A stretch of 64,000 nucleotides of DNA from an uncultured virus (IMG/VR IMGVR_UViG_3300032288_003839) (Duplodnaviria > Heunggongvirae > Uroviricota > Caudoviricetes): the IMG/VR virus record IMGVR_UViG_3300032288_003839. One strand, written 5' to 3'. Under the pieces are notes generated by a model. The model made no database searches and was not told where the DNA came from. It saw nothing but the letters and a program-made list of their open reading frames with translations. Position 1 is the stretch's first letter. Each line of letters opens with the position of its first letter. Made by a program: the position numbers and the translations under genes. Positions 1 through 34,188 of this stretch are shown here, piece after piece.

Positions 1-890
1 AACCAGATGTTCCAGAAGAACCAGATGTTCCAGATGTACCAGATGAACCACTTGTACCAGAAGAACCAGAAGACCCAGAAGACCCAGAAGAACCAGATGT
101 TCCAGAAGATCCAGAAGATCCAGAAGATCCAGAAGATCCACTTGTACCACTAGAACCAGATGTACCAGAAGATCCAGAAGAACCAGATGTACCAGAAGAA
201 CCAGATGTACCAGAAGATCCACTTGTACCGGATGATCCAGAAGAACCAGAAGAACCAGATGTTCCAGAAGAACCAGATGTACCAGAAGAACCAGATGTAC
301 CAGATGTACCATTAGACCCATCTATACCATTAACACCACTGACACCGGAAGAACCACTTGTGCCACTAGAACCAGATGATCCAGATGATCCACTTGTACC
401 AGAAGAACCACTTGTACCAGAAGAACCAGATGATCCACTTGTACCAGAAGATCCAGAAGATCCAGATGAACCAGAAGATCCAGAAGATCCAGATGATCCA
501 CTTGTACCAGAAGATCCAGATGAACCAGAAGAACCAGAAGATCCAGATGATCCACTTGTACCTGATGATCCAGATGATCCACTTGTACCTGATGATCCAG
601 ATGATCCACTTGTACCTGATGATCCAGATGATCCACTTGTACCTGATGATCCAGAAGAACCAGATGTACCACTAGAACCAGATGTACCGGATGAACCAGA
701 AGAACCACTTGATCCACTTGTGCCAGAAGATCCACTTGTACCTGATGATCCAGATGATCCAGAAGAACCAGAAGAACCACTCGTGCCAGATGAACCACTC
801 GTACCAGAAGATCCAGATGTACCAGAAGAACCGCTTGTACCAGAAGATCCACTTGTACCCGATGAACCAGATGAACCAGAAGATCCATCA
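1..890. repeat. Degenerate 9-nt tandem repeat encoding GSS/GTS tripeptides
   Basis: Repeated units such as ccagaagaa, ccagatgat, ccacttgta and ccagatgta. Confidence 0.95.
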
Positions 891-1207
891 AGACCACCTA
901 TTAACCAATTAGAACCATTACTAGTTAGGTATAAACTATTATATTGTGAGAGTGTTTTTGTTAGAGAACCGTCAATTGTTTGAGATGATGTGGTATTAAC
1001 TGTGATTATACCAGATCCGCTATTTTTTATAATATAGAATTTACCAGATACACCAACAGCTGTTGGTAGTGTTACACTAAAAGTACCCGAACAATCTATA
1101 TAATGATCGTCAACACTTATTGTATAAGTTGTATTTGTTGAATAATAAGGAAATGTTATTCCCCCTAAAGATATAATACCGCGTCTAGTGACGAATTCAT
1201 TAGCCAT
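1..1207 (-). CDS. Virion/tail-fibre protein with long (Gly-Ser/Thr-Ser)n repeat; runs off the window start
   Basis: Not in the ORF track because it has no stop in the window. Manual translation from ATG at 1207 gives MANEFVTRRGIISLGGITFPYY...SNGSNWLIGGLDGSSGSSG..., which stays in frame to position 1. A TTTATATATAC motif lies upstream. Confidence 0.8.
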   Translation of the reverse strand, partial: MANEFVTRRGIISLGGITFPYYSTNTTYTISVDDHYIDCSGTFSVTLPTAVGVSGKFYIIKNSGSGIITVNTTSSQTIDGSLTKTLSQYNSLYLTSNGSNWLIGGLDGSSGSSGSSGTSGSSGTSGSSGTSGSSGTSGSSGTSGSSGSSGSSGSSGTSGSSGTSGSSGSSGSSGTSGSSGTSGSSGSSGTSGSSGSSGTSGSSGSSGTSGSSGSSGTSGSSGSSGSSGSSGSSGTSGSSGSSGSSGSSGSSGSSGTSGSSGSSGTSGSSGTSGSSGSSGSSGTSGSSGVSGVNGIDGSNGTSGTSGSSGTSGSSGTSGSSGSSGSSGTSGSSGTSGSSGTSGSSGSSGTSGSSGTSGSSGSSGSSGSSGTSGSSGSSGSSGSSGTSGSSGTSGTSGSSGTSG

Positions 1208-1339: not shown

Positions 1340-4279
1340 TTATCCATCTATAATTCTTAGACCGGTTTTAATAGTCCAAGTTCCTGATGTTACATTAGAT
1401 TGTAATGTAACATTACCGGTAATAATAGAAACATTAAATTCTATACCAGTTGTAGACCCATTCAAATCGGGAGTAGAAGTATCAGTAAACTGAACATTTG
1501 TGCCATCCCAAACAGCCATTACAGTACCACTTCTTCTTTGATTAGTAACACCTAAAACATTATAATCAAAATAACAACTATTTCCAGCAGAAGCAGTAAA
1601 TGATATTAATGATGATGTTCCTGTTGTAATACCAGTTGATTGACTGGTATTCATAATAAGTGGACCAACCATAGTCACTTTACCATCACCTTGAACCTTA
1701 AATGTATCTGTACCTGAACCATTTTGAACAGTTAAAACATTATCAGTATCAGAGACAGAACCTCTACGGATATTAACAGCACCTAAAGTAGAATTTGTTA
1801 ATATTTCTGGATTAGAAGCAGAGTTATCATAAGCACCTTGTAATGTAGTAGTAGAAACACCACCAGCAGATCCACCTAACAATTCACCAAACTTAGATAC
1901 AGCAGTAAATTGAACATCATTTGTATTATTTAAATCAGAAGCACCATTCTTAATAGTAATGATTCCAATAAGAATACCATTATCTCTGTTATTGGTATAT
2001 TCTTGGAAAGATTCTGCTAATATACCAGTAACTGCCTTTGATAATGTTGTATAAGTTTGTTGACCATATTGCACACGAACAACACCTGTAGGGAATAAGA
2101 AAACTCTTTGGTTAGTATATTGAGCACCACCAACAGAAGAAACGGTACCACCAATATCATAATTTGTAGCATCAATAAATGTAGTATTTGAGAACGAACC
2201 ACCTGTTTGAGTTCTATATTGAAAAGTAACCGGATTCTGTCCACCAATAGAAACACTATCTGGATTTAATTGGTCATTTACCCAATTAATACCATTACCC
2301 CAAAGTGAACCACCAGACATTTGAAATGATAAGTTAGTACCATTAGGTCTTATTGCAATCCCATCATTAATCAACTTAATAGGTGTCCACAGGTCACGAA
2401 GTGCTGAATATGGAGAAACATCAAAGTCTGGTGTATTATTAATATTCTGAATGATTGTTTTATCAGGATGCACTACTTTACCTAAGTAAATATTTTGTCT
2501 TCTTTCTTGAGGAGTAGGAAAAGTAGGTTGTAATATAAGAGAGGAAGTCGGACTTAATAAAACATAAGTAGCTGGATCCGAATTCAAATAAGGAGTAGAT
2601 AAACCGGTAGCACCAGCAAATTGAACATTAACAACATCTGGAGCGGTTGAGTAAGTATAAGTATTATAGACAATCCAACCTTTAGCAGCAGAAACACTGA
2701 ATGTTGTATTAGATATTTTTGTAATACCTGGACTATATTCATAAACTCCAGTTGAAATAACATTACCTTCTAAGATATTTCTTTCACTATTAGTTATAGA
2801 TAAATTTAAATCTTCATTATTAATATTAACATATAATCTACCTGTTGTAATTCCATTATCCACAACATAACCTATCTCATTTCTTCTTGAACTAAATGTT
2901 AGACCAGTAGGTAGTATATAACCACCAGGAGTAGTATCTGATAAATATAATAAATCACCAACTGAGTAAGAACTTAAATTAATATCTGTTAATAAACCAT
3001 TTGTTAAAACTAAACCCACACCACCATTTGGAATGACATCAGCTGCTAAACCAACCACTCTATTATCACCACTATGTGTAGATATAGCTAAAGAAACATT
3101 AGGTAAACCACCAGAAGCACTTAATATCTTAACTGCTGACCCTCTAGCAATTGCGAAACCACTTATGTTATTAACTCTTAAATATAATTGCTGACCAACT
3201 CTTACTACAACACTTTGATTGGTATCTGGGTAATAAGAAAGAGAACTCTCATTGTGATCAAAGTAAACTCTACCCGACTGAGTAGCAGGAACTGAATATG
3301 AACCAAAGTCCATGTAGTTAACACCTGCAATAACACCACCATTAACAGAAAATGTAAATCCGTCATATGTTAATCCAGAGTTAGCTAATGCTGAATTGGT
3401 AGAAGATCCTGTGGCTGTTAATATTCTATAGTTAGCCGGATTAATAATAGTATTAAATCCAGTACCGGATGTTCCACTTGTACCATTAGTTCCATCAGTA
3501 CCATTTACACCTGATAATCCACTTGTACCACTTGATCCACTTGTACCACTTGAACCAGATGTACCAGATGATCCAGATGTACCAGATGATCCAGATGTAC
3601 CAGATGATCCAGATGTACCAGATGATCCAGATGTACCACTTGATCCACTTGTACCACTTGATCCACTTGTACCACTTGATCCACTTGTACCACTTGATCC
3701 AGATGTACCAGAAGATCCAGATGATCCAGATGATCCACTTGTACCAGAAGATCCACTAGATCCACTTGTACCTGATGATCCGGAAGTACCAGAAGATCCA
3801 GATGTACCCGATGATCCACTAGATCCACTTGTACCAGAAGATCCAGATGTACCCGATGATCCACTAGATCCACTTGTACCTGATGATCCACTAGATCCAC
3901 TTGTACCTGATGATCCACTAGATCCACTTGTACCTGATGATCCAGATGTACCAGAAGATCCGGAAGTACCTGATGATCCACTTGTTCCTGATGTTCCCGA
4001 TGTTCCAGGTATAGAGGCTGTCCAAGTGGCAACACCATTAGAATCACTGATTAAAATATAATTAGGACCTTGAGTACCATCTTGTAATTGAAAAGCACCA
4101 GATTGAGTTGAATATATATGAAATTTTGTATTAGGAGAAGCAGTTCCAATACCTAATCTGTTATTAGTAAAATCCCAATGCAATTGATTAAAATTCTCAC
4201 TTACAGTGCTATTAGTTCCTAAGAATAAAATAGATCCTTGTGTGCCTCCTCTAATTTGTTTGATATTCAGTTGACTCAT
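1340..4279 (-). CDS. Tail-fibre/virion protein with a GSS/GTS repeat segment
   Basis: 979 aa; NRLGIGTASP fibre-type motif; about 185 aa of G-X-S repeats; Gly/Ser/Thr-rich beta-type body. Confidence 0.75.
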   Translation of the reverse strand: MSQLNIKQIRGGTQGSILFLGTNSTVSENFNQLHWDFTNNRLGIGTASPNTKFHIYSTQSGAFQLQDGTQGPNYILISDSNGVATWTASIPGTSGTSGTSGSSGTSGSSGTSGSSGTSGSSGSSGTSGSSGSSGTSGSSGSSGTSGSSGTSGSSGSSGTSGSSGTSGSSGTSGSSGSSGTSGSSGSSGSSGTSGSSGTSGSSGTSGSSGTSGSSGTSGSSGTSGSSGTSGSSGTSGSSGTSGSSGTSGSSGTSGLSGVNGTDGTNGTSGTSGTGFNTIINPANYRILTATGSSTNSALANSGLTYDGFTFSVNGGVIAGVNYMDFGSYSVPATQSGRVYFDHNESSLSYYPDTNQSVVVRVGQQLYLRVNNISGFAIARGSAVKILSASGGLPNVSLAISTHSGDNRVVGLAADVIPNGGVGLVLTNGLLTDINLSSYSVGDLLYLSDTTPGGYILPTGLTFSSRRNEIGYVVDNGITTGRLYVNINNEDLNLSITNSERNILEGNVISTGVYEYSPGITKISNTTFSVSAAKGWIVYNTYTYSTAPDVVNVQFAGATGLSTPYLNSDPATYVLLSPTSSLILQPTFPTPQERRQNIYLGKVVHPDKTIIQNINNTPDFDVSPYSALRDLWTPIKLINDGIAIRPNGTNLSFQMSGGSLWGNGINWVNDQLNPDSVSIGGQNPVTFQYRTQTGGSFSNTTFIDATNYDIGGTVSSVGGAQYTNQRVFLFPTGVVRVQYGQQTYTTLSKAVTGILAESFQEYTNNRDNGILIGIITIKNGASDLNNTNDVQFTAVSKFGELLGGSAGGVSTTTLQGAYDNSASNPEILTNSTLGAVNIRRGSVSDTDNVLTVQNGSGTDTFKVQGDGKVTMVGPLIMNTSQSTGITTGTSSLISFTASAGNSCYFDYNVLGVTNQRRSGTVMAVWDGTNVQFTDTSTPDLNGSTTGIEFNVSIITGNVTLQSNVTSGTWTIKTGLRIIDG
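3460..4010. repeat. Second GSS/GTS-coding tandem repeat
   Basis: Same 9-nt unit family as at 1-890. Confidence 0.95.
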
Positions 4280-31348: not shown

Positions 31349-31861
31349 ATGAAAGAAAAAAGAAAACACAGAATAAACGGAGAAGTCCGCTTTCCTCAAG
31401 TTAGAGTTATTGGTGACGGTGAACCAAAATTAATGAGTTCATATGACGCTTTTCAATTAGCACAATCCCAAAATAAAGATCTCATTTTGATAAATGAGAA
31501 TCAAACAATACCTATTGTTAAAATTGAAGAGTATAATAAGTTTCTTTATACCTTAGAAAAATCTGAGAAGGAAAAGAAAAAGAACTCATCTAAGTCAGTT
31601 ACTAAAGAAATTCAATTAAGTCCCGAAATATCTGACCATGACCTCGGAACCAAATCTAGAAAAAGTAAAGAGTTTTTAGAAGATGGTAATAAGGTTAAAG
31701 TTGTCCTACAACTAAAAGGCAGACAGAAGGCAACTCCTGAAAGAGGTCAAATAGTTATGCTTAAATTTGTTACATTAGTTGAAGAACTTGGTGTCGCTGA
31801 AAGTCTTCCTAAATTAGAAGGAAGTAAATGGCATATGATTATAAAACCAAAGAAGAAGTAG
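31349..31861 (+). CDS. infC: Translation initiation factor IF-3
   Basis: HRINGEVRFPQVRVI; KEIQLSPEISDHDL.TK; FLEDGNKVKV.L..KGRQ. Confidence 0.92.
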   Translation: MKEKRKHRINGEVRFPQVRVIGDGEPKLMSSYDAFQLAQSQNKDLILINENQTIPIVKIEEYNKFLYTLEKSEKEKKKNSSKSVTKEIQLSPEISDHDLGTKSRKSKEFLEDGNKVKVVLQLKGRQKATPERGQIVMLKFVTLVEELGVAESLPKLEGSKWHMIIKPKKK

Positions 31862-32624
31862 ATTTTATAAAAGTCCAATAGTAGTCTTTTGATTCTCCCT
31901 TTTCAAAATATATCATAATCATCCTATGTGTTTTATTGGTAAATAAAATAACTTCATTTGTGTTGTTAAATTCAAAGACCTCTCCAGTCTTTTTAGAAAT
32001 AGCTTTTATATACTTATATTTAATCTTCTTCTCACTTAACTTTTTTATTACATCATCTCTTACCTCTTTTTTTCCTTTATTCCACGGATCTCTTCCTATA
32101 TTTTTTAATCTAACCTTTTCAGAAACATCTGGATTGTGCATTGGATTATTCAATTTAAGTCTATCTGATATTTTTTTCTTAGTGGATTCTTTTAATTTTT
32201 TCCCCCAATTTGGATGTCTATCTCCTTTAAGTGACATCTTATATCTTGATTTTTTAGAATGAACTAATCCAGTTACTCCCTCTCCACCATTAACTAAGTT
32301 AACAAGAGGTCCTTTACTATCAATTCTTTTACCTATCTTATTAATTAATAGTATTTCTTTATCAAATGACTCTTGTTCAGTTAGATTTTCATATAATTTA
32401 AAAACAATAGGATCATATCCTGATTTTATAATTTTATTTATCCTATTTGACATAAAGTTTTTTTTCTTTAATTTATAATCTTTCATGTGAATAGTATCTC
32501 TACTGTTATGTCCCTTTTCTATATAGAAAGGCTCATATAAAAAAGAAAAATTCAAACCATCATAATAATATGAACCTTTCTTTGATGGGTCCATATAAAC
32601 ATATACATAAAATTTATTTTCCAT
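31839..32624 (-). mobile_element. Free-standing GIY-YIG homing endonuclease with NUMOD3-like repeats
   Basis: FYVYVY...PFYIEKG..R; E..LI..IG....GPLVN...GGEG; HSKKSRYKMS, HPNWGKKLKESTKKKIS and PWNKGK motifs. Confidence 0.8.
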
Positions 32625-32720
32625 ATATTATATATTAAATTATCATAACTCCCTACAACTAATAAGTTATTTTTATAAACTTTTAATAAATAAAATGATA
32701 AAACAATTAATATAGCAAAC

Positions 32721-34188
32721 ATGACAAAACAAGAAAAAATAGAAAAAATAGAGTCATTAAAAAAAAGAGCTAGTGAGCTGAAGAAGGAAGTTGATTATTT
32801 CAACGCTCTTCAGCTTGCTGGATAACCCCCTCTGATTTATCAGAGGGGGTAAATGAGCACTTAAATTAGTACTTAATGGTTCTTATGGAGCATTCGCTAC
32901 GTCCTACTTCATATTATATAATAACCATGTAGCAGGAACAATCACTGCTCAAGGCCGTGACCTTACAAAAACAATGGATAAGGTTAATGAAGACTATTGG
33001 TATAACCAATGGCAGAATGACCACGAGCTTCATTATAAAATGGGTATTAAGAACATAACACCTATTTCAAAAGATGAACCAGTTTCTATTTATGCTGACA
33101 CCGATTCATTATTTGTTTCATTCAAACCAGCAGTAGACCATTGTGATTGGTTGAATTTAGTATTCAATGATGAATTTCTTAATTCAATGGATAAAAAGTT
33201 TATTATACTTTCTAAAGAACTTCCAAAGTTCAATAATACTAACTGTGTAGGAACTGCACATAATATTAAAGAGTTTACCGACTTATTGAGTACAGAACAT
33301 GAATTGGTTTTAATATGTGGTAACTTTGTTAAAGATAGAGAGTTAGTAAAGATGATTAAGTCTGGTTCTGTAAAGAATGAGATAAAATGGAACTGGTCTA
33401 ATGAAATAGATTTCATACAAGGATTAGACCATTATAGATATGGTGGTTACTTTAAAAAGTGTTTAGAGGATTATGCTGGATCATTTGGTGTGGAAAACAA
33501 AGAAGACTTTGAGTTAGAAAGAATATCAGAATCTATTATCAATATTGCTAAAAAGAAATACATTCAACATATTTTATTTGAAGATGGTATTCCGTATGAT
33601 AGATTGAGTTATATTTATCCTAAAGGTGTAGAACTTGTTAGGTCATCTACTCCAGCATTTGCTAGAGATAAAATTGTAGGAATTGTTAAATATCTATTTA
33701 CACATCCAGATACTTTTAATATCAAAGACTTACTAAAATTAGTAAAAGGTTTAAGAAAAGAATTTGAATTGGCTGATATAGATGATATTTGTATGCAATC
33801 TTCTGTTTCTAATTATGAAACAAAAGTTCTTAATGACAAATCATTGCCTTTAGGATTTATAAGTGGTGCTCACTTCGCGGTTAAGTCAGCTGCACATCAC
33901 AACTTTCTTTTATCAAAAAGTAAAGAGTATCAACAAAAATATGAATTCATTAAATCAGGTCACAAGATTAAATACTATTGTTGTAAAGATAAATCAGTAA
34001 CTGATATGTTTGCTTATACACGCGGCTCTTTTCCAGTAGAGTTTGCTCCTCCTATAGACTATGATGAACAGTTCGCTAAATCTATCTTGTCTCCTATCAA
34101 TTCAATTATTGAACCATTAGGAATGCCTGAGATTACTAAAAGGTTGTCAGTTGTGATGGATATTTTTGGGGGTAAAGGAGGTTTCTAA
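32721..34188 (+). CDS. Family B DNA polymerase, C-terminal subunit (fingers-palm-thumb), interrupted by a 40-nt insert; predicted 475 aa if the insert is skipped
   Basis: 32721-32819 encodes MTKQ...YFNALQLA. 32860 onward (+1 frame) encodes LKLVLNGSYGAF...ITAQGR...YADTDS...KKKY...KGVELVRSSTP. No exonuclease domain or motif A. Confidence 0.85.
32820..32859 (+). other. 40-nt non-coding insert with a perfect hairpin inside polymerase motif B (candidate ribosomal bypass element)
   Basis: GGA TAA, then accccctctga-ttta-tcagagggggt, then AAATGA GCA; both relevant frames are blocked by stops. Confidence 0.7.

What the first reader, a model, noticed from the sequence alone, without database searches (positions are those of the whole stretch)
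32770..32821. Long stem-loop encoded in the codons just 5' of the putative take-off site
Seen: ctagtgagctgaaga (32770-32784) pairs with tcttcagcttgctgg (32807-32821), giving 15 bp including 3 G-U. It is capped by gttga/tcaac (32790-94/32800-04) around a 5-nt loop. The segment uses G-ending codons (GAG CTG AAG AAG, CAG) that look uncommon in this AT-rich window, suggesting selection on RNA structure. Established: a 5' stem-loop and a basic nascent peptide promote T4 gene 60 bypassing, and the nascent peptide here contains LKKR..ELKK. Inference: this is a co-evolved part of the recoding signal, which argues against the insert being a recent inactivating accident.
Basis: partly seen in the sequence, partly recalled or inferred. 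Interest (0 to 1): 0.75.

Follow-up and report, generated by a model that had tools for sequence, protein, structure and literature searches.

The report
Stem-loop of a polymerase bypass cassette
A strong RNA stem-loop sits just before a 40-base hairpin insert that breaks an essential phage DNA polymerase gene, and comparison with relatives suggests the two belong to a mobile cassette that lets ribosomes skip the insert.

Summary
32770-32784 pairs with 32807-32821 (15 bp, 3 G-U) around an inner 5-bp hairpin. MFE is -27 kcal/mol, z -5.75, and 0 of 2000 synonymous recodings fold as well.

The stem-loop lies in the C-terminal piece of a split family-B DNA polymerase gene of a huge phage. It ends on codon GCT 32817-19. 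A 40-nt insert follows (GGA, in-frame TAA, a 10-11 bp C5...G5 hairpin, then GCA) that insert-less relatives lack.

Of 65 classified loci (window included), 40 carry 36-48 nt inserts of this kind, at five sites inside motif B. Downstream frames are intact (dN/dS 0.02-0.11).

All 16 distinct inserts at the window's site have this 5' stem-loop, with compensatory changes. None of 18 distinct insert-less genes has it. The nine distinct inserts after Tyr lack both the stem-loop and a matching landing codon.

The stem-loop plus insert moves between polymerase lineages as a unit of about 150 nt and is linked to homing-endonuclease genes (24 of 40 loci against 4 of 25).

Best reading: a homing-endonuclease-linked translational bypass cassette, analogous to T4 gene 60 and showing no sign of homology, in which the refolding stem-loop pulls the mRNA forward. 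Bypassing itself is inferred, and RNA-level excision is not excluded. I found no published description.

The parts
31839..32624 (-). GIY-YIG / NUMOD3 homing-endonuclease gene, divergent from the interrupted polymerase gene and immediately upstream of it
   Evidence: Pfam LEM-3_GIY-YIG 5.7e-09 and NUMOD3 5.3e-05. Homologues sit at the same place in L049 (insert-bearing) and L044-46 (insert-less). Close relatives L005 and L006 carry a different endonuclease-like gene there (DUF7487; PHROG 'homing endonuclease').
32721..32819 (+). Exon 1 of the PolB C-terminal-piece gene: ATG plus 32 codons, ending ...YFNALQLA
   Evidence: ORF. Collinear with the uninterrupted ORFs of L001 and L002.
32770..32821 (+). 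The 5' stem-loop of the finding: 15-bp outer helix, 5x2 internal loop, 5-bp inner helix, 5-nt loop. Its 3' arm contains the take-off codon.
   Evidence: stability against shuffles and against synonymous recoding; present only in site-A insert-bearing genes; covariation.
32817..32819 (+). Proposed take-off codon GCT (Ala33)
   Evidence: Last codon collinear with insert-less homologues. Pairs with landing GCA.
32820..32856 (+). 37-nt coding gap: GGA, in-frame stop TAA (32823-25), hairpin, then spacer TAAATGA. With the landing codon it makes up the 40 nt absent from insert-less relatives.
   Evidence: Alignment A1 shows a clean 40-column gap in L001 and L002. Identical gap in L005 and L006.
32826..32849 (+). 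Gap hairpin CCCCCTCTGA-TTTA-TCAGAGGGGG (10 bp, or 11 with 32825/32850), starting 6 nt after the take-off codon
   Evidence: It is the only such hairpin in the 64-kb window.
32857..32859 (+). Proposed landing codon GCA (Ala), 7 nt after the G-run
32860..34188 (+). Exon 2: 442 codons plus stop, with motif B KLVLNGSYG (32863-32889) and motif C YADTDS (33091-33108). There is no in-frame start codon before ATG 32974.
   Evidence: Pfam DNA_pol_B 1e-15; ORF table; 76.6% identity to LR756502 and LR745206; dN/dS 0.05-0.06 against L005, L006 and L007.

Best explanation
The stem-loop is a selected RNA structure. It belongs to a small mobile cassette of 5' stem-loop plus about 40 nt of hairpin insert that sits in the motif-B region of the split PolB gene of huge phages. 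The cassette is frequently linked to a homing-endonuclease gene. The proposed mechanism below is inferred. Ribosomes start at ATG 32721 and read 33 codons to GCU (32817-19). At that point the G/C-clamped gap hairpin begins 6 nt beyond the P-site codon, at the mouth of the mRNA entry channel. There it hinders decoding of the next codons. The in-frame UAA two codons on ends any ribosome that reads through. Peptidyl-tRNA(Ala) lets go of GCU. The 3' arm of the stem-loop (32807-21, positions -10 to +5 relative to the P site) is inside the ribosome at take-off. Its partner arm (32770-84) has already emerged. As the mRNA slips, the two arms zip up, reel the mRNA out of the exit side and make the movement one-directional. 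The tRNA re-pairs with GCA (32857-59) and translation resumes at CUU 32860. The product would be a 475-aa protein collinear with the 474-aa uninterrupted homologue. At the DNA level the insert probably protects this conserved site from the linked endonuclease.
For: (1) The structure is real and far beyond chance, also against a codon-usage null (0 of 2000). (2) It is specific to insert-bearing genes: 16 of 16 distinct site-A 63-nt segments fold at -15.4 to -30.6, below all 18 distinct insert-less ones (mean -7.3, minimum -12.8). Neighbours on the exon-2 tree differ the same way: L069 -24.0 against L060 -10.9, L038 -21.8 against L031 -9.9, L053 -24.0 against L009 -7.9, L022 -23.7 against L028 -12.7, and the window -27.0 against L008 -4.9. 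L043 encodes the same ASELKK peptide with A/T-ending codons and has no stem. (3) Covariation: 7 of 15 outer-helix pairs change on both sides, the covariation score is 0.230 against 0.130 shuffled (0 of 500), and slid controls give 0.03-0.11. RNAalifold independently finds a 9-bp core with 5 compensated pairs. (4) The 60 nt downstream of landing are no more structured than in insert-less genes (-8.1 against -7.7, p 0.55). (5) The interrupted gene is functional. All 40 insert-bearing loci keep an open exon 2, although some read shorter because of further changes downstream. dN/dS is 0.02-0.11 in the 8 pairs that gave a finite ratio. It is the only PolB C-piece in two 98%-complete genomes. Motif B has no start codon of its own. 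(6) Signs of a translation-level mechanism: an in-frame stop is the 1st or 2nd codon after take-off in 23 of 28 distinct cassettes, against 0 and 1 of 28 in the other two frames. The spacer to the hairpin is 6 nt in 23 of 28. Take-off and landing codons are synonymous and share their first two bases in 19 of 28, and 16 of those 19 go NNY to NNA. Insert lengths are multiples of 3 in only 8 of 28. L032 and L033 differ by one G in the gap with unchanged flanks. (7) Mobility and endonuclease linkage: L053 and L069 are 92-98% identical over stem-loop plus insert but 53-83% downstream. L006 and L007 are 97-100% identical downstream but carry different cassettes. Insert states are scattered over the exon-2 tree (22 changes). 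An endonuclease-like ORF is present in 24 of 40 insert-bearing loci and 4 of 25 insert-less loci. (8) Precedent from the literature: passages of PMC5462505 propose that folding of the gene 60 5' SL emerging from the 30S subunit pulls the mRNA and ensures forward sliding. Passages of PMC7282821 report that stem-loops at the channel entrance block A-site tRNA binding.
Against: There is no protein or RNA evidence. The nine distinct site-B cassettes (after Tyr) have neither a 5' stem-loop nor a matching landing codon: AAC in 4, TAA in 2, and AGC, CAA and GAC in 1 each. So neither feature is universally needed, and codon re-pairing may not be the rule. In the window the stop is not adjacent to the take-off codon, and the intervening GGA is not rare (34% of Gly). 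The G-run resembles a Shine-Dalgarno sequence 7 nt before landing, but 0 of 44 window genes have such a motif upstream. The site-A cassettes share ancestry and spread as a unit, so part of the association could be hitch-hiking, and shuffle controls do not remove relatedness (note). In the gene 60 family the 5' SL is reported as not conserved (section 19 of bioRxiv 10.1101/2022.08.31.505936). The tree is the quick one, not the finished careful search.
Confidence: 0.6

Rival explanations
1. RNA-level excision. The insert would be a mini-intron cut out and religated by phage or host RNA enzymes, with the 5' stem-loop and the gap hairpin serving as the recognition structure. The ribosome would then read a normal mRNA.
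For: Precise restoration of the conserved protein at five sites, with random insert length modulo 3, fits excision as well as bypassing. In site-B genes the exon flanks (GCUCC and GGAGC) and the insert ends pair into one long helix, and there is no matching landing codon. The window encodes an RNA-repair-pathway nucleotidyltransferase, RlaP.
Against: The stop codons keep to the upstream reading frame (23 of 28 against 0 and 1 of 28 in the other frames), which splicing would not select. The distance from hairpin to the 3' junction varies from 5 to 14 nt, so there is no fixed ruler. No bulge-helix-bulge geometry was seen in the folds. No Rfam family matches at a meaningful score. From recall, no such mRNA splicing is known in bacteria or phages.
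Confidence: 0.17
2. The stem-loop is a by-product or a regulator. Either the G/C-ending codons are recoding that makes the endonuclease target immune, or the structure tunes translation or stability of this near-leaderless mRNA. In both cases it would have no role in crossing the gap.
For: In MobA elements the region next to the bypass is element-encoded and diverged from the parental gene (passages of bioRxiv 10.1101/2022.08.31.505936). The stem-loop travels with the insert as one recombination unit. Site-B cassettes do without it.
Against: Immunity recoding does not predict 13-15 bp of complementarity or compensatory double changes such as GAGCUG/CAGCUC to GAGUUG/CAACUC, GAG/CUC to CAA/UUG, or GAGC/GCUC to AAGC/GCUU. 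The helix ends on the take-off codon in both site-A subtypes. Insert-less genes with the same start context lack it.
Confidence: 0.13
3. The gene is broken (a pseudogene or assembly artefact), or it makes two separate polypeptides, and the stem-loop arose by chance.
For: As annotated, the frame stops at TAA 32823-25 and exon 2 has no start codon before 32974.
Against: Forty independent contigs carry such inserts, with open exon 2 and dN/dS 0.02-0.11. Motif B upstream of the first ATG is fully conserved. The gene is single-copy in near-complete genomes. The stem-loop statistics argue against chance. ATG triplets in the gap are absent from many cassettes and are out of frame where present.
Confidence: 0.03

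Closest known systems
T4 gene 60 / MobA translational bypass cassette (topoisomerase II large subunit of T4-like phages)
   Same: Both have a short non-coding gap (50 nt there, 37 nt between codons here) early in the downstream piece of a split essential replication gene: take-off at codon 46 there, codon 33 here. Both have synonymous take-off and landing codons, a nearby in-frame stop, a hairpin in the gap, a purine/G-rich element a few nt before landing, a 5' stem-loop, linkage to a homing endonuclease, horizontal spread as a unit, and endonuclease replacement or loss with the cassette retained (for gene 60; here).
   Different: The host gene differs (PolB motif B, not Topo2L), and I saw no sign of homology. 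Here the hairpin starts 6 nt after the take-off codon instead of containing it. One sense codon usually lies between take-off and stop. Cassettes occupy five sites within 10 codons. The 5' stem-loop is strongly conserved and covaries, whereas it is reported as not conserved in the gene 60 family. The genes of this phage lack Shine-Dalgarno motifs. One subclass has no matching landing codon.
Magnusiomyces capitatus mitochondrial 'byps'
   Same: Both are 27-55 nt GC-rich inserts in an AT-rich genome, interrupting essential genes and bypassed without a Shine-Dalgarno sequence, with an AU-rich 3' part of the gap (passages of bioRxiv 10.1101/2022.08.31.505936). Here the inserts are 36-48 nt, sit in DNA of about 28% G+C, and have an A/U-rich 3' spacer.
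   Different: Byps number 81 across 12 genes. Here there is one element per genome, always in PolB motif B: 1 in the window, 1 in 483 kb, and none in two insert-less genomes. Byps are not described there as linked to an endonuclease or to a conserved 5' stem-loop.
Frameshift-stimulating stem-loops (dnaX, HIV gag-pol)
   Same: A stable hairpin a few nt downstream of the decoding site, which blocks A-site tRNA binding when it reaches the channel entrance (PMC7282821).
   Different: Those act when 11-12 nt from the first P-site nucleotide and shift the frame by one base. Here the hairpin would begin at +10, and the two frames are 40 nt apart, with stops in all connecting frames.

Membership tests
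T4 gene 60-type programmed translational bypass | A non-coding gap inside an ORF whose removal restores a conserved, collinear protein | tested here: met
   A 40-nt gap relative to L001 and L002. Removal gives ...NALQLA-LKLVLNGSYG..., as in 25 insert-less loci.
T4 gene 60-type programmed translational bypass | Matched take-off and landing codons readable by one tRNA | tested here: met
   Window GCU to GCA. 19 of 28 distinct cassettes are matched and 9 of 28 (site B) are not.
T4 gene 60-type programmed translational bypass | [quoted passage not shown] | tested here: not met
   In the window GGA (34% of Gly codons) intervenes and TAA is the second codon. An immediate stop occurs in only 3 of 28 cassettes; the stop is the second codon in 20 of 28.
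T4 gene 60-type programmed translational bypass | A take-off stem-loop that includes the take-off codon | tested here: not met
   The gap hairpin starts 6 nt after the take-off codon in 23 of 28 cassettes. Only L016 and L026 extend the helix to the take-off codon. In the window the take-off codon lies in the 5' stem-loop instead.
T4 gene 60-type programmed translational bypass | A 5' stem-loop upstream of take-off | tested here: met
T4 gene 60-type programmed translational bypass | A Shine-Dalgarno-like element about 6 nt 5' of the landing codon that pairs with 16S rRNA | tested here: inconclusive
   GAGGGGG ends 7 nt before GCA, and the spacer is 5-9 nt in 26 of 28 cassettes. But 0 of 44 window genes carry such a motif upstream.
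T4 gene 60-type programmed translational bypass | A nascent-peptide signal in the exit tunnel | not testable with these tools
   The peptide is basic and helical-looking but largely shared with insert-less genes. One difference is a Ser in '(E/D)SLK', seen only in insert-bearing genes.
T4 gene 60-type programmed translational bypass | Part of a homing-endonuclease mobile element in a split gene | tested here: met
   GIY-YIG gene at 31839-32624. Endonuclease-like ORF in 24 of 40 insert-bearing loci against 4 of 25 insert-less. PolB is split, with the N piece more than 90 kb away in relatives. Mosaic transfer.
T4 gene 60-type programmed translational bypass | Homology to the gene 60 cassette, or location in Topo2L | tested here: not met
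   The location is PolB, not Topo2L. Sequence similarity to the T4 cassette was not tested, because no T4 sequence was fetched.
T4 gene 60-type programmed translational bypass | One polypeptide demonstrated from the two frames | not testable with these tools
Magnusiomyces byp elements | A short GC-rich hairpin insert in an AT-rich coding sequence | tested here: met
Magnusiomyces byp elements | Many dispersed copies in many genes | tested here: not met
   One copy in the window. One in G001. Two C5...G5 hairpins in G002, the second lying between convergent genes. None in W01 or G003.
Intrinsic transcription terminator | A G+C-rich hairpin followed by a U-run | tested here: not met
   0 terminator-like sites in 32400-33100.
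Known RNA families (Rfam 15) | A match at or near the gathering score | tested here: not met
   Only two miRNA-model hits of 18-19 bits, against gathering scores of 74-97.
Family B DNA polymerase (the host gene) | Motif B KxxxNSxYG and motif C YxDTDS; Pfam DNA_pol_B | tested here: met
   KLVLNGSYG at 32863-89 and YADTDS at 33091-108. PF00136 at 1e-15. The motif names are recalled.

The most novel reading that the evidence does not exclude
This would be a second, independently evolved family of homing-endonuclease-linked programmed translational bypass cassettes. It lives in motif B of the split PolB of huge phages whose genes lack Shine-Dalgarno sequences. A conserved, covarying 5' stem-loop would act as the motor at one site. 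One subclass (after Tyr) would resume without any matching landing codon, which would be a structure-guided hop not covered by the gene 60 re-pairing model.
Probability: 0.45. Interest if true: 0.95.

Novelty: new variant of a known kind. Interest (0 to 1): 0.85.

Why it matters
From what I read, programmed bypassing of tens of nucleotides is established only for the T4 gene 60 family (all in one topoisomerase gene) and for yeast mitochondrial byps. A non-homologous family in another essential gene, with 28 distinct natural variants at five sites, would supply natural mutagenesis data on what a ribosome needs in order to hop. It includes matched insert-less controls and near-identical phages that carry different cassettes.

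Here the 5' stem-loop is conserved with compensatory changes. In the gene 60 family its role is disputed because it is not conserved. That makes the 'mRNA refolding behind the ribosome drives forward sliding' idea directly testable.

The result also matters for annotation. The replicative polymerase of many huge phages is called as broken or truncated, and insert-bearing genes would be missed or mis-scored in completeness and phylogeny pipelines. Finally, it gives a second example of homing endonucleases using a translationally invisible insert, probably as self-immunity.

Tried and rejected
There is therefore no RNA or read evidence.
- Alternative genetic code: rejected. Long ORFs read normally under table 11, and the two exons lie in different frames with stops in every connecting frame.
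- Readthrough or in-frame translation of the insert: rejected. Only 8 of 28 insert lengths are multiples of 3.
- Re-initiation at the ATG in the gap (GGGGG-TAA-ATG-A): rejected. That ATG is out of frame with exon 2, at different offsets in the window and L050, and it is missing from cassettes such as L038, L049, L053, L056, L057 and L069.
- Take-off at GGA as in T4: rejected. The only in-frame GGA downstream (32887-89) would delete LKLVLNGSY.
- A 3' stem-loop ('forward slippage barrier'): none found.
- A genome-wide mobile hairpin: rejected.
- Terminator: rejected. Known RNA family: none. tRNA genes in the window: none.
- Site B: I tried take-off at the following Ala, Val or Phe codon, and landing on downstream GCA, TTT or TTC. 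Each version deletes invariant Gly (or Gly-Ala) or fails for the GTT and GTC cases, so site B remains unexplained.
- Strict linkage to the window's GIY-YIG gene: rejected. Only L044-46 and L049 carry that homologue. Linkage holds for endonuclease-like genes in general.
- The dN/dS pair L029/L049 gave 1.09. This is evidently an out-of-register ungapped comparison (pN 0.60, although the tree puts the two 0.1 apart), and I disregard it. Two pairs were saturated and one had no synonymous differences.
Full report
**Observation.** The described pairing is in the sequence. 32770-32784 pairs with 32807-32821 (15 bp, 3 G-U). It encloses a 5x2 internal loop and the inner hairpin 32790-94/32800-04. RNAfold gives exactly this structure at -27.0 kcal/mol (z -5.75, 0 of 200 shuffles). 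It persists in a 201-nt context, followed by a second hairpin at 32825-32850. I also kept the peptide fixed and drew synonymous codons from the usage of 44 window ORFs. That null has a mean of -6.5 (sd 2.2) and a best of -16.7, and 0 of 2000 samples reach -27. The arms use codons that are rare here: CTG is 1.3% of Leu, CAG 14% of Gln, GAG 21% of Glu and AAG 26% of Lys.

**Setting.**
- The window is AT-rich (27-37% G+C) and phage-like. It encodes collagen-repeat fibre proteins, a baseplate protein, NAMPT, PPK2, ClpP and IF3.
- Its closest GenBank relatives are uncultured phage genomes of 635-735 kb.
- The stem-loop lies in a gene that starts at ATG 32721 and stops at TAA 32823-25 after MTKQEKIEKIESLKKRASELKKEVDYFNALQLAG.
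- From 32857, in another frame, an open frame encodes ALKLVLNGSYGAF...YADTDS..., the palm and thumb part of a family-B DNA polymerase (Pfam 1e-15). It has no in-frame start before 32974.
- In LR756502 and LR745206 one ORF of 474 aa reads ...NAMQLALKLVLNGSYG... without interruption.
- The alignment shows a clean 40-nt insertion in the window: GGA TAA CCCCCTCTGA TTTA TCAGAGGGGG TAAATGA GCA.
- In relatives PolB is split. The N-terminal piece lies more than 90 kb away, and there is a single C-terminal piece per genome, including two 98%-complete genomes whose only copy carries an insert.

**A family of inserts.**
- A scan of IMG/VR gave 70 loci. With L001-L004 and the window, 65 could be classified. 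Of these, 25 are uninterrupted and 40 carry a 36-48 nt insert.
- Ten loci could not be classified by the script (L003, L004, L020, L035, L037, L048, L051, L071-73), because of contig ends, divergent motifs or matches that start further downstream. L003 reads through uninterrupted.
- There are 28 distinct cassettes at five positions within ten codons of motif B: after QLA or QLAL (site A, 16 cassettes, the window's type), after KLV (1), after LNG (1), after LNGS (1) and after LNGSY (site B, 9).
- All 27 distinct gaps contain an 8-12 bp hairpin, always with the C-run 5' and the G-run 3', in 26 different sequences.
- The hairpin starts 6 nt after the last collinear codon in 23 of 28. The G-run ends 5-9 nt before the codon preceding resumption in 26 of 28.
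- An in-frame stop is the first or second codon after that last codon in 23 of 28. The other two frames show 0 and 1 of 28 at the equivalent positions.
- Insert length is a multiple of three in only 8 of 28.
- At sites other than B, the last upstream codon and the last insert codon are synonymous (19 of 28): GCT/GCA, GCT/GCT, CTT or CTC/CTA, GTT/GTA, TCT/TCA, GGT/GGT. Sixteen of the 19 go from NNY to NNA.
- Exon 2 is open in all 40 loci. Some read shorter because of further changes downstream. dN/dS between insert-bearing pairs is 0.02-0.11 in the 8 pairs that gave a finite ratio. Of the other four pairs, one had no synonymous differences, two were saturated, and one was evidently out of register.
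- The inserts are therefore tolerated in an essential gene under purifying selection, and both flanks must end up in one protein.

**The stem-loop across the family.**
- In 63-nt segments ending at the take-off codon, all 16 distinct site-A sequences fold at -15.4 to -30.6 into the same long helix. The 18 distinct insert-less sequences average -7.2 to -7.4 (minimum -12.8) in the same register.
- The 60 nt after landing show no difference (-8.1 against -7.7, p 0.55).
- On an alignment of 18 site-A sequences (17 distinct), 7 of 15 outer-helix pairs change on both sides. The covariation score is 0.230 against 0.130 shuffled (0 of 500), and slid controls give 0.03-0.11.
- RNAalifold on its own finds a 9-bp core with 5 compensated pairs.
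- The changes are mostly synonymous pairs (CUG/CAG to UUG/CAA). Some are coupled amino-acid changes (GAG...CUC to CAA...UUG in L050, GAG...CUC to AAG...CUU in L032).
- L043, which is insert-less, encodes the same ASELKK peptide with A/T-ending codons and has no helix.
- The single site-C cassette has its own helix ending on its own take-off codon in the longer fold. The site-C and site-E cassettes fold only weakly better than insert-less genes in the 63-nt test (z about -2.4 and -2.5).
- Site D and eight of the nine site-B cassettes are not distinguishable from insert-less genes. In several site-B cassettes the exon flanks and insert ends pair into one extended helix instead.

**Mobility.**
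- On a quick maximum-likelihood tree of exon 2, insert states are scattered: 22 changes against a minimum of 6 and a shuffled mean of 24.9. The careful search did not finish.
- L006 (site A) and L007 (site B) have identical first 340 residues of exon 2 and 97-100% identical DNA downstream. They are 25-73% identical from -64 to +86 around the cassette.
- L053 and L069 are 92-98% identical across stem-loop plus insert and 53-83% downstream.
- The window and L006 differ at 1 of 78 positions in the stem-loop segment, although exon-2 dS is 0.45.
- The unit that moves is therefore about 150 nt: stem-loop, gap and landing site.
- Immediately upstream, on the other strand, the window has a GIY-YIG/NUMOD3 endonuclease gene.
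- L005 and L006 share the window's cassette but carry a different gene there. It has DUF7487 and matches PHROGs annotated as homing endonuclease.
- An endonuclease-like ORF is found in 24 of 40 insert-bearing loci; in three of these it is only a 62-aa remnant. It is found in 4 of 25 insert-less loci; three of these are one GIY-YIG clade, and in the fourth (L043) the hit lies downstream of the gene.

**Mechanism (inferred).** The anatomy parallels T4 gene 60.
- Passages of Agirrezabala et al. (PMC5462505) describe a take-off codon followed by a stop, a hairpin in the A site, a nascent-peptide anchor and a 5' SL. Folding of that SL on emergence from the 30S subunit is proposed to pull the mRNA and ensure forward sliding.
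- The abstract, section 19 and passages of Manning and Atkins (bioRxiv 10.1101/2022.08.31.505936) describe the cassette as part of the MobA homing-endonuclease element. That element splits the topoisomerase gene, and the insert protects the DNA from the endonuclease.
- In the window, with GCU 32817-19 in the P site, the gap hairpin begins at +10. The channel holds about 11 nt from +1, and stem-loops at its entrance block A-site tRNA binding (passages of PMC7282821).
- At that moment the 3' arm of the stem-loop spans -10 to +5, inside the ribosome. The 5' arm (-47 to -33) and the inner hairpin are already outside.
- Once the tRNA unpairs, zipping of 15 bp would draw the mRNA through. Landing on GCA, with resumption at CUU 32860, gives a 475-aa product.
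- The NNY-to-NNA pattern would fit a U34 tRNA leaving a wobble pair for a Watson-Crick pair. This point is inference.
- The clustering of five insertion sites in the most conserved DNA of the gene fits protection of an endonuclease target. This is also inference.

**What does not fit.**
- Site-B cassettes have no matching landing codon (AAC, TAA, AGC, CAA or GAC after TAT or TAC) and no 5' stem-loop.
- The stop is usually one codon removed from take-off, and GGA is not rare.
- The G-run looks like a Shine-Dalgarno element, but 0 of 44 genes here use one.
- No RNA or protein data could be obtained. Excision of the insert from the mRNA therefore remains possible. The frame-locked stops and the variable 3' distance argue against it.

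**Novelty.** Seven full-text searches found bypass literature only for gene 60 and Topo2L, yeast byps and a Streptomyces phage candidate. Nothing concerned PolB or huge phages. The Manning and Atkins preprint has no occurrence of 'polymerase'. bioRxiv supplements are closed, so its metagenomic tables could not be checked. Rfam has no matching family.

**Verdict.** The element is best described as a new, non-homologous variant of homing-endonuclease-linked translational bypassing, pending RNA and protein evidence.

Noticed in passing
window 31349-31861 (+): A phage-encoded translation initiation factor IF-3 (both Pfam domains) lies just upstream of the polymerase piece. The synteny is conserved in many relatives, and the endonuclease genes are inserted between IF-3 and the polymerase piece.
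   Followed up: partly
window, upstream of most start codons (for example 32707-32715 TTAATATAG): 0 of 44 genes have a Shine-Dalgarno-like motif. Many instead have a TAATATATA-like motif 5-10 nt before the ATG. This suggests very short leaders, a phage-specific promoter, and a host that does not use Shine-Dalgarno sequences.
   Followed up: no
L032-L034, L052 (about 500 nt inserted after residue 114); L037 and L048 (match starts at residue 115): A second interruption or split of the same polymerase piece falls right at motif C (YADTDS). It may be an intron, an endonuclease insertion or a further gene split.
   Followed up: no
L056, L057, L066-L068, L071, L074: These polymerase pieces lack about 60-70 residues (query residues roughly 133/145 to 205) in frame. 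This looks like a dispensable variable region.
   Followed up: no
L083 1501-1520 (G002:147775-147794): The only other C5...G5 hairpin in that 465-kb genome sits between two convergent genes, like a bidirectional terminator. This is a possible source for the polymerase inserts.
   Followed up: partly
window 32751-32756 (GAGTCA; peptide IESLK): A Ser in '(E/D/N/Q/M)-S-L-(K/R)', about 22 codons before take-off, is present in all site-A cassettes, 5 of 9 site-B cassettes and the site-D and site-E cassettes. It is in none of the 18 insert-less genes. It could be a marker of cassette ancestry or part of a nascent-peptide or nucleotide signal.
   Followed up: no
L032 against L033/L034: These cassettes differ only by one G in the G-run (42 against 41 nt), with unchanged flanks. 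This is a natural length polymorphism inside the skipped region.
   Followed up: no
L005, L006, L014, L027, L030, L053, L056, L057, L063, L066, L069 (upstream minus-strand ORFs): Pfam DUF7487 proteins of 290-395 aa match PHROGs annotated as homing endonuclease (phrog_3339, phrog_12131) plus phrog_5104. DUF7487 may mark a homing-endonuclease family, but no solved structure was found by sequence.
   Followed up: partly
window 2-1207 and 1340-4279 (-): Two large proteins carry collagen triple-helix repeats, probably fibres. The window also carries NAMPT, PPK2, two NUDIX genes, HIT, ClpP, FKBP, two DNA methylases and an RlaP RNA-repair nucleotidyltransferase.
   Followed up: no
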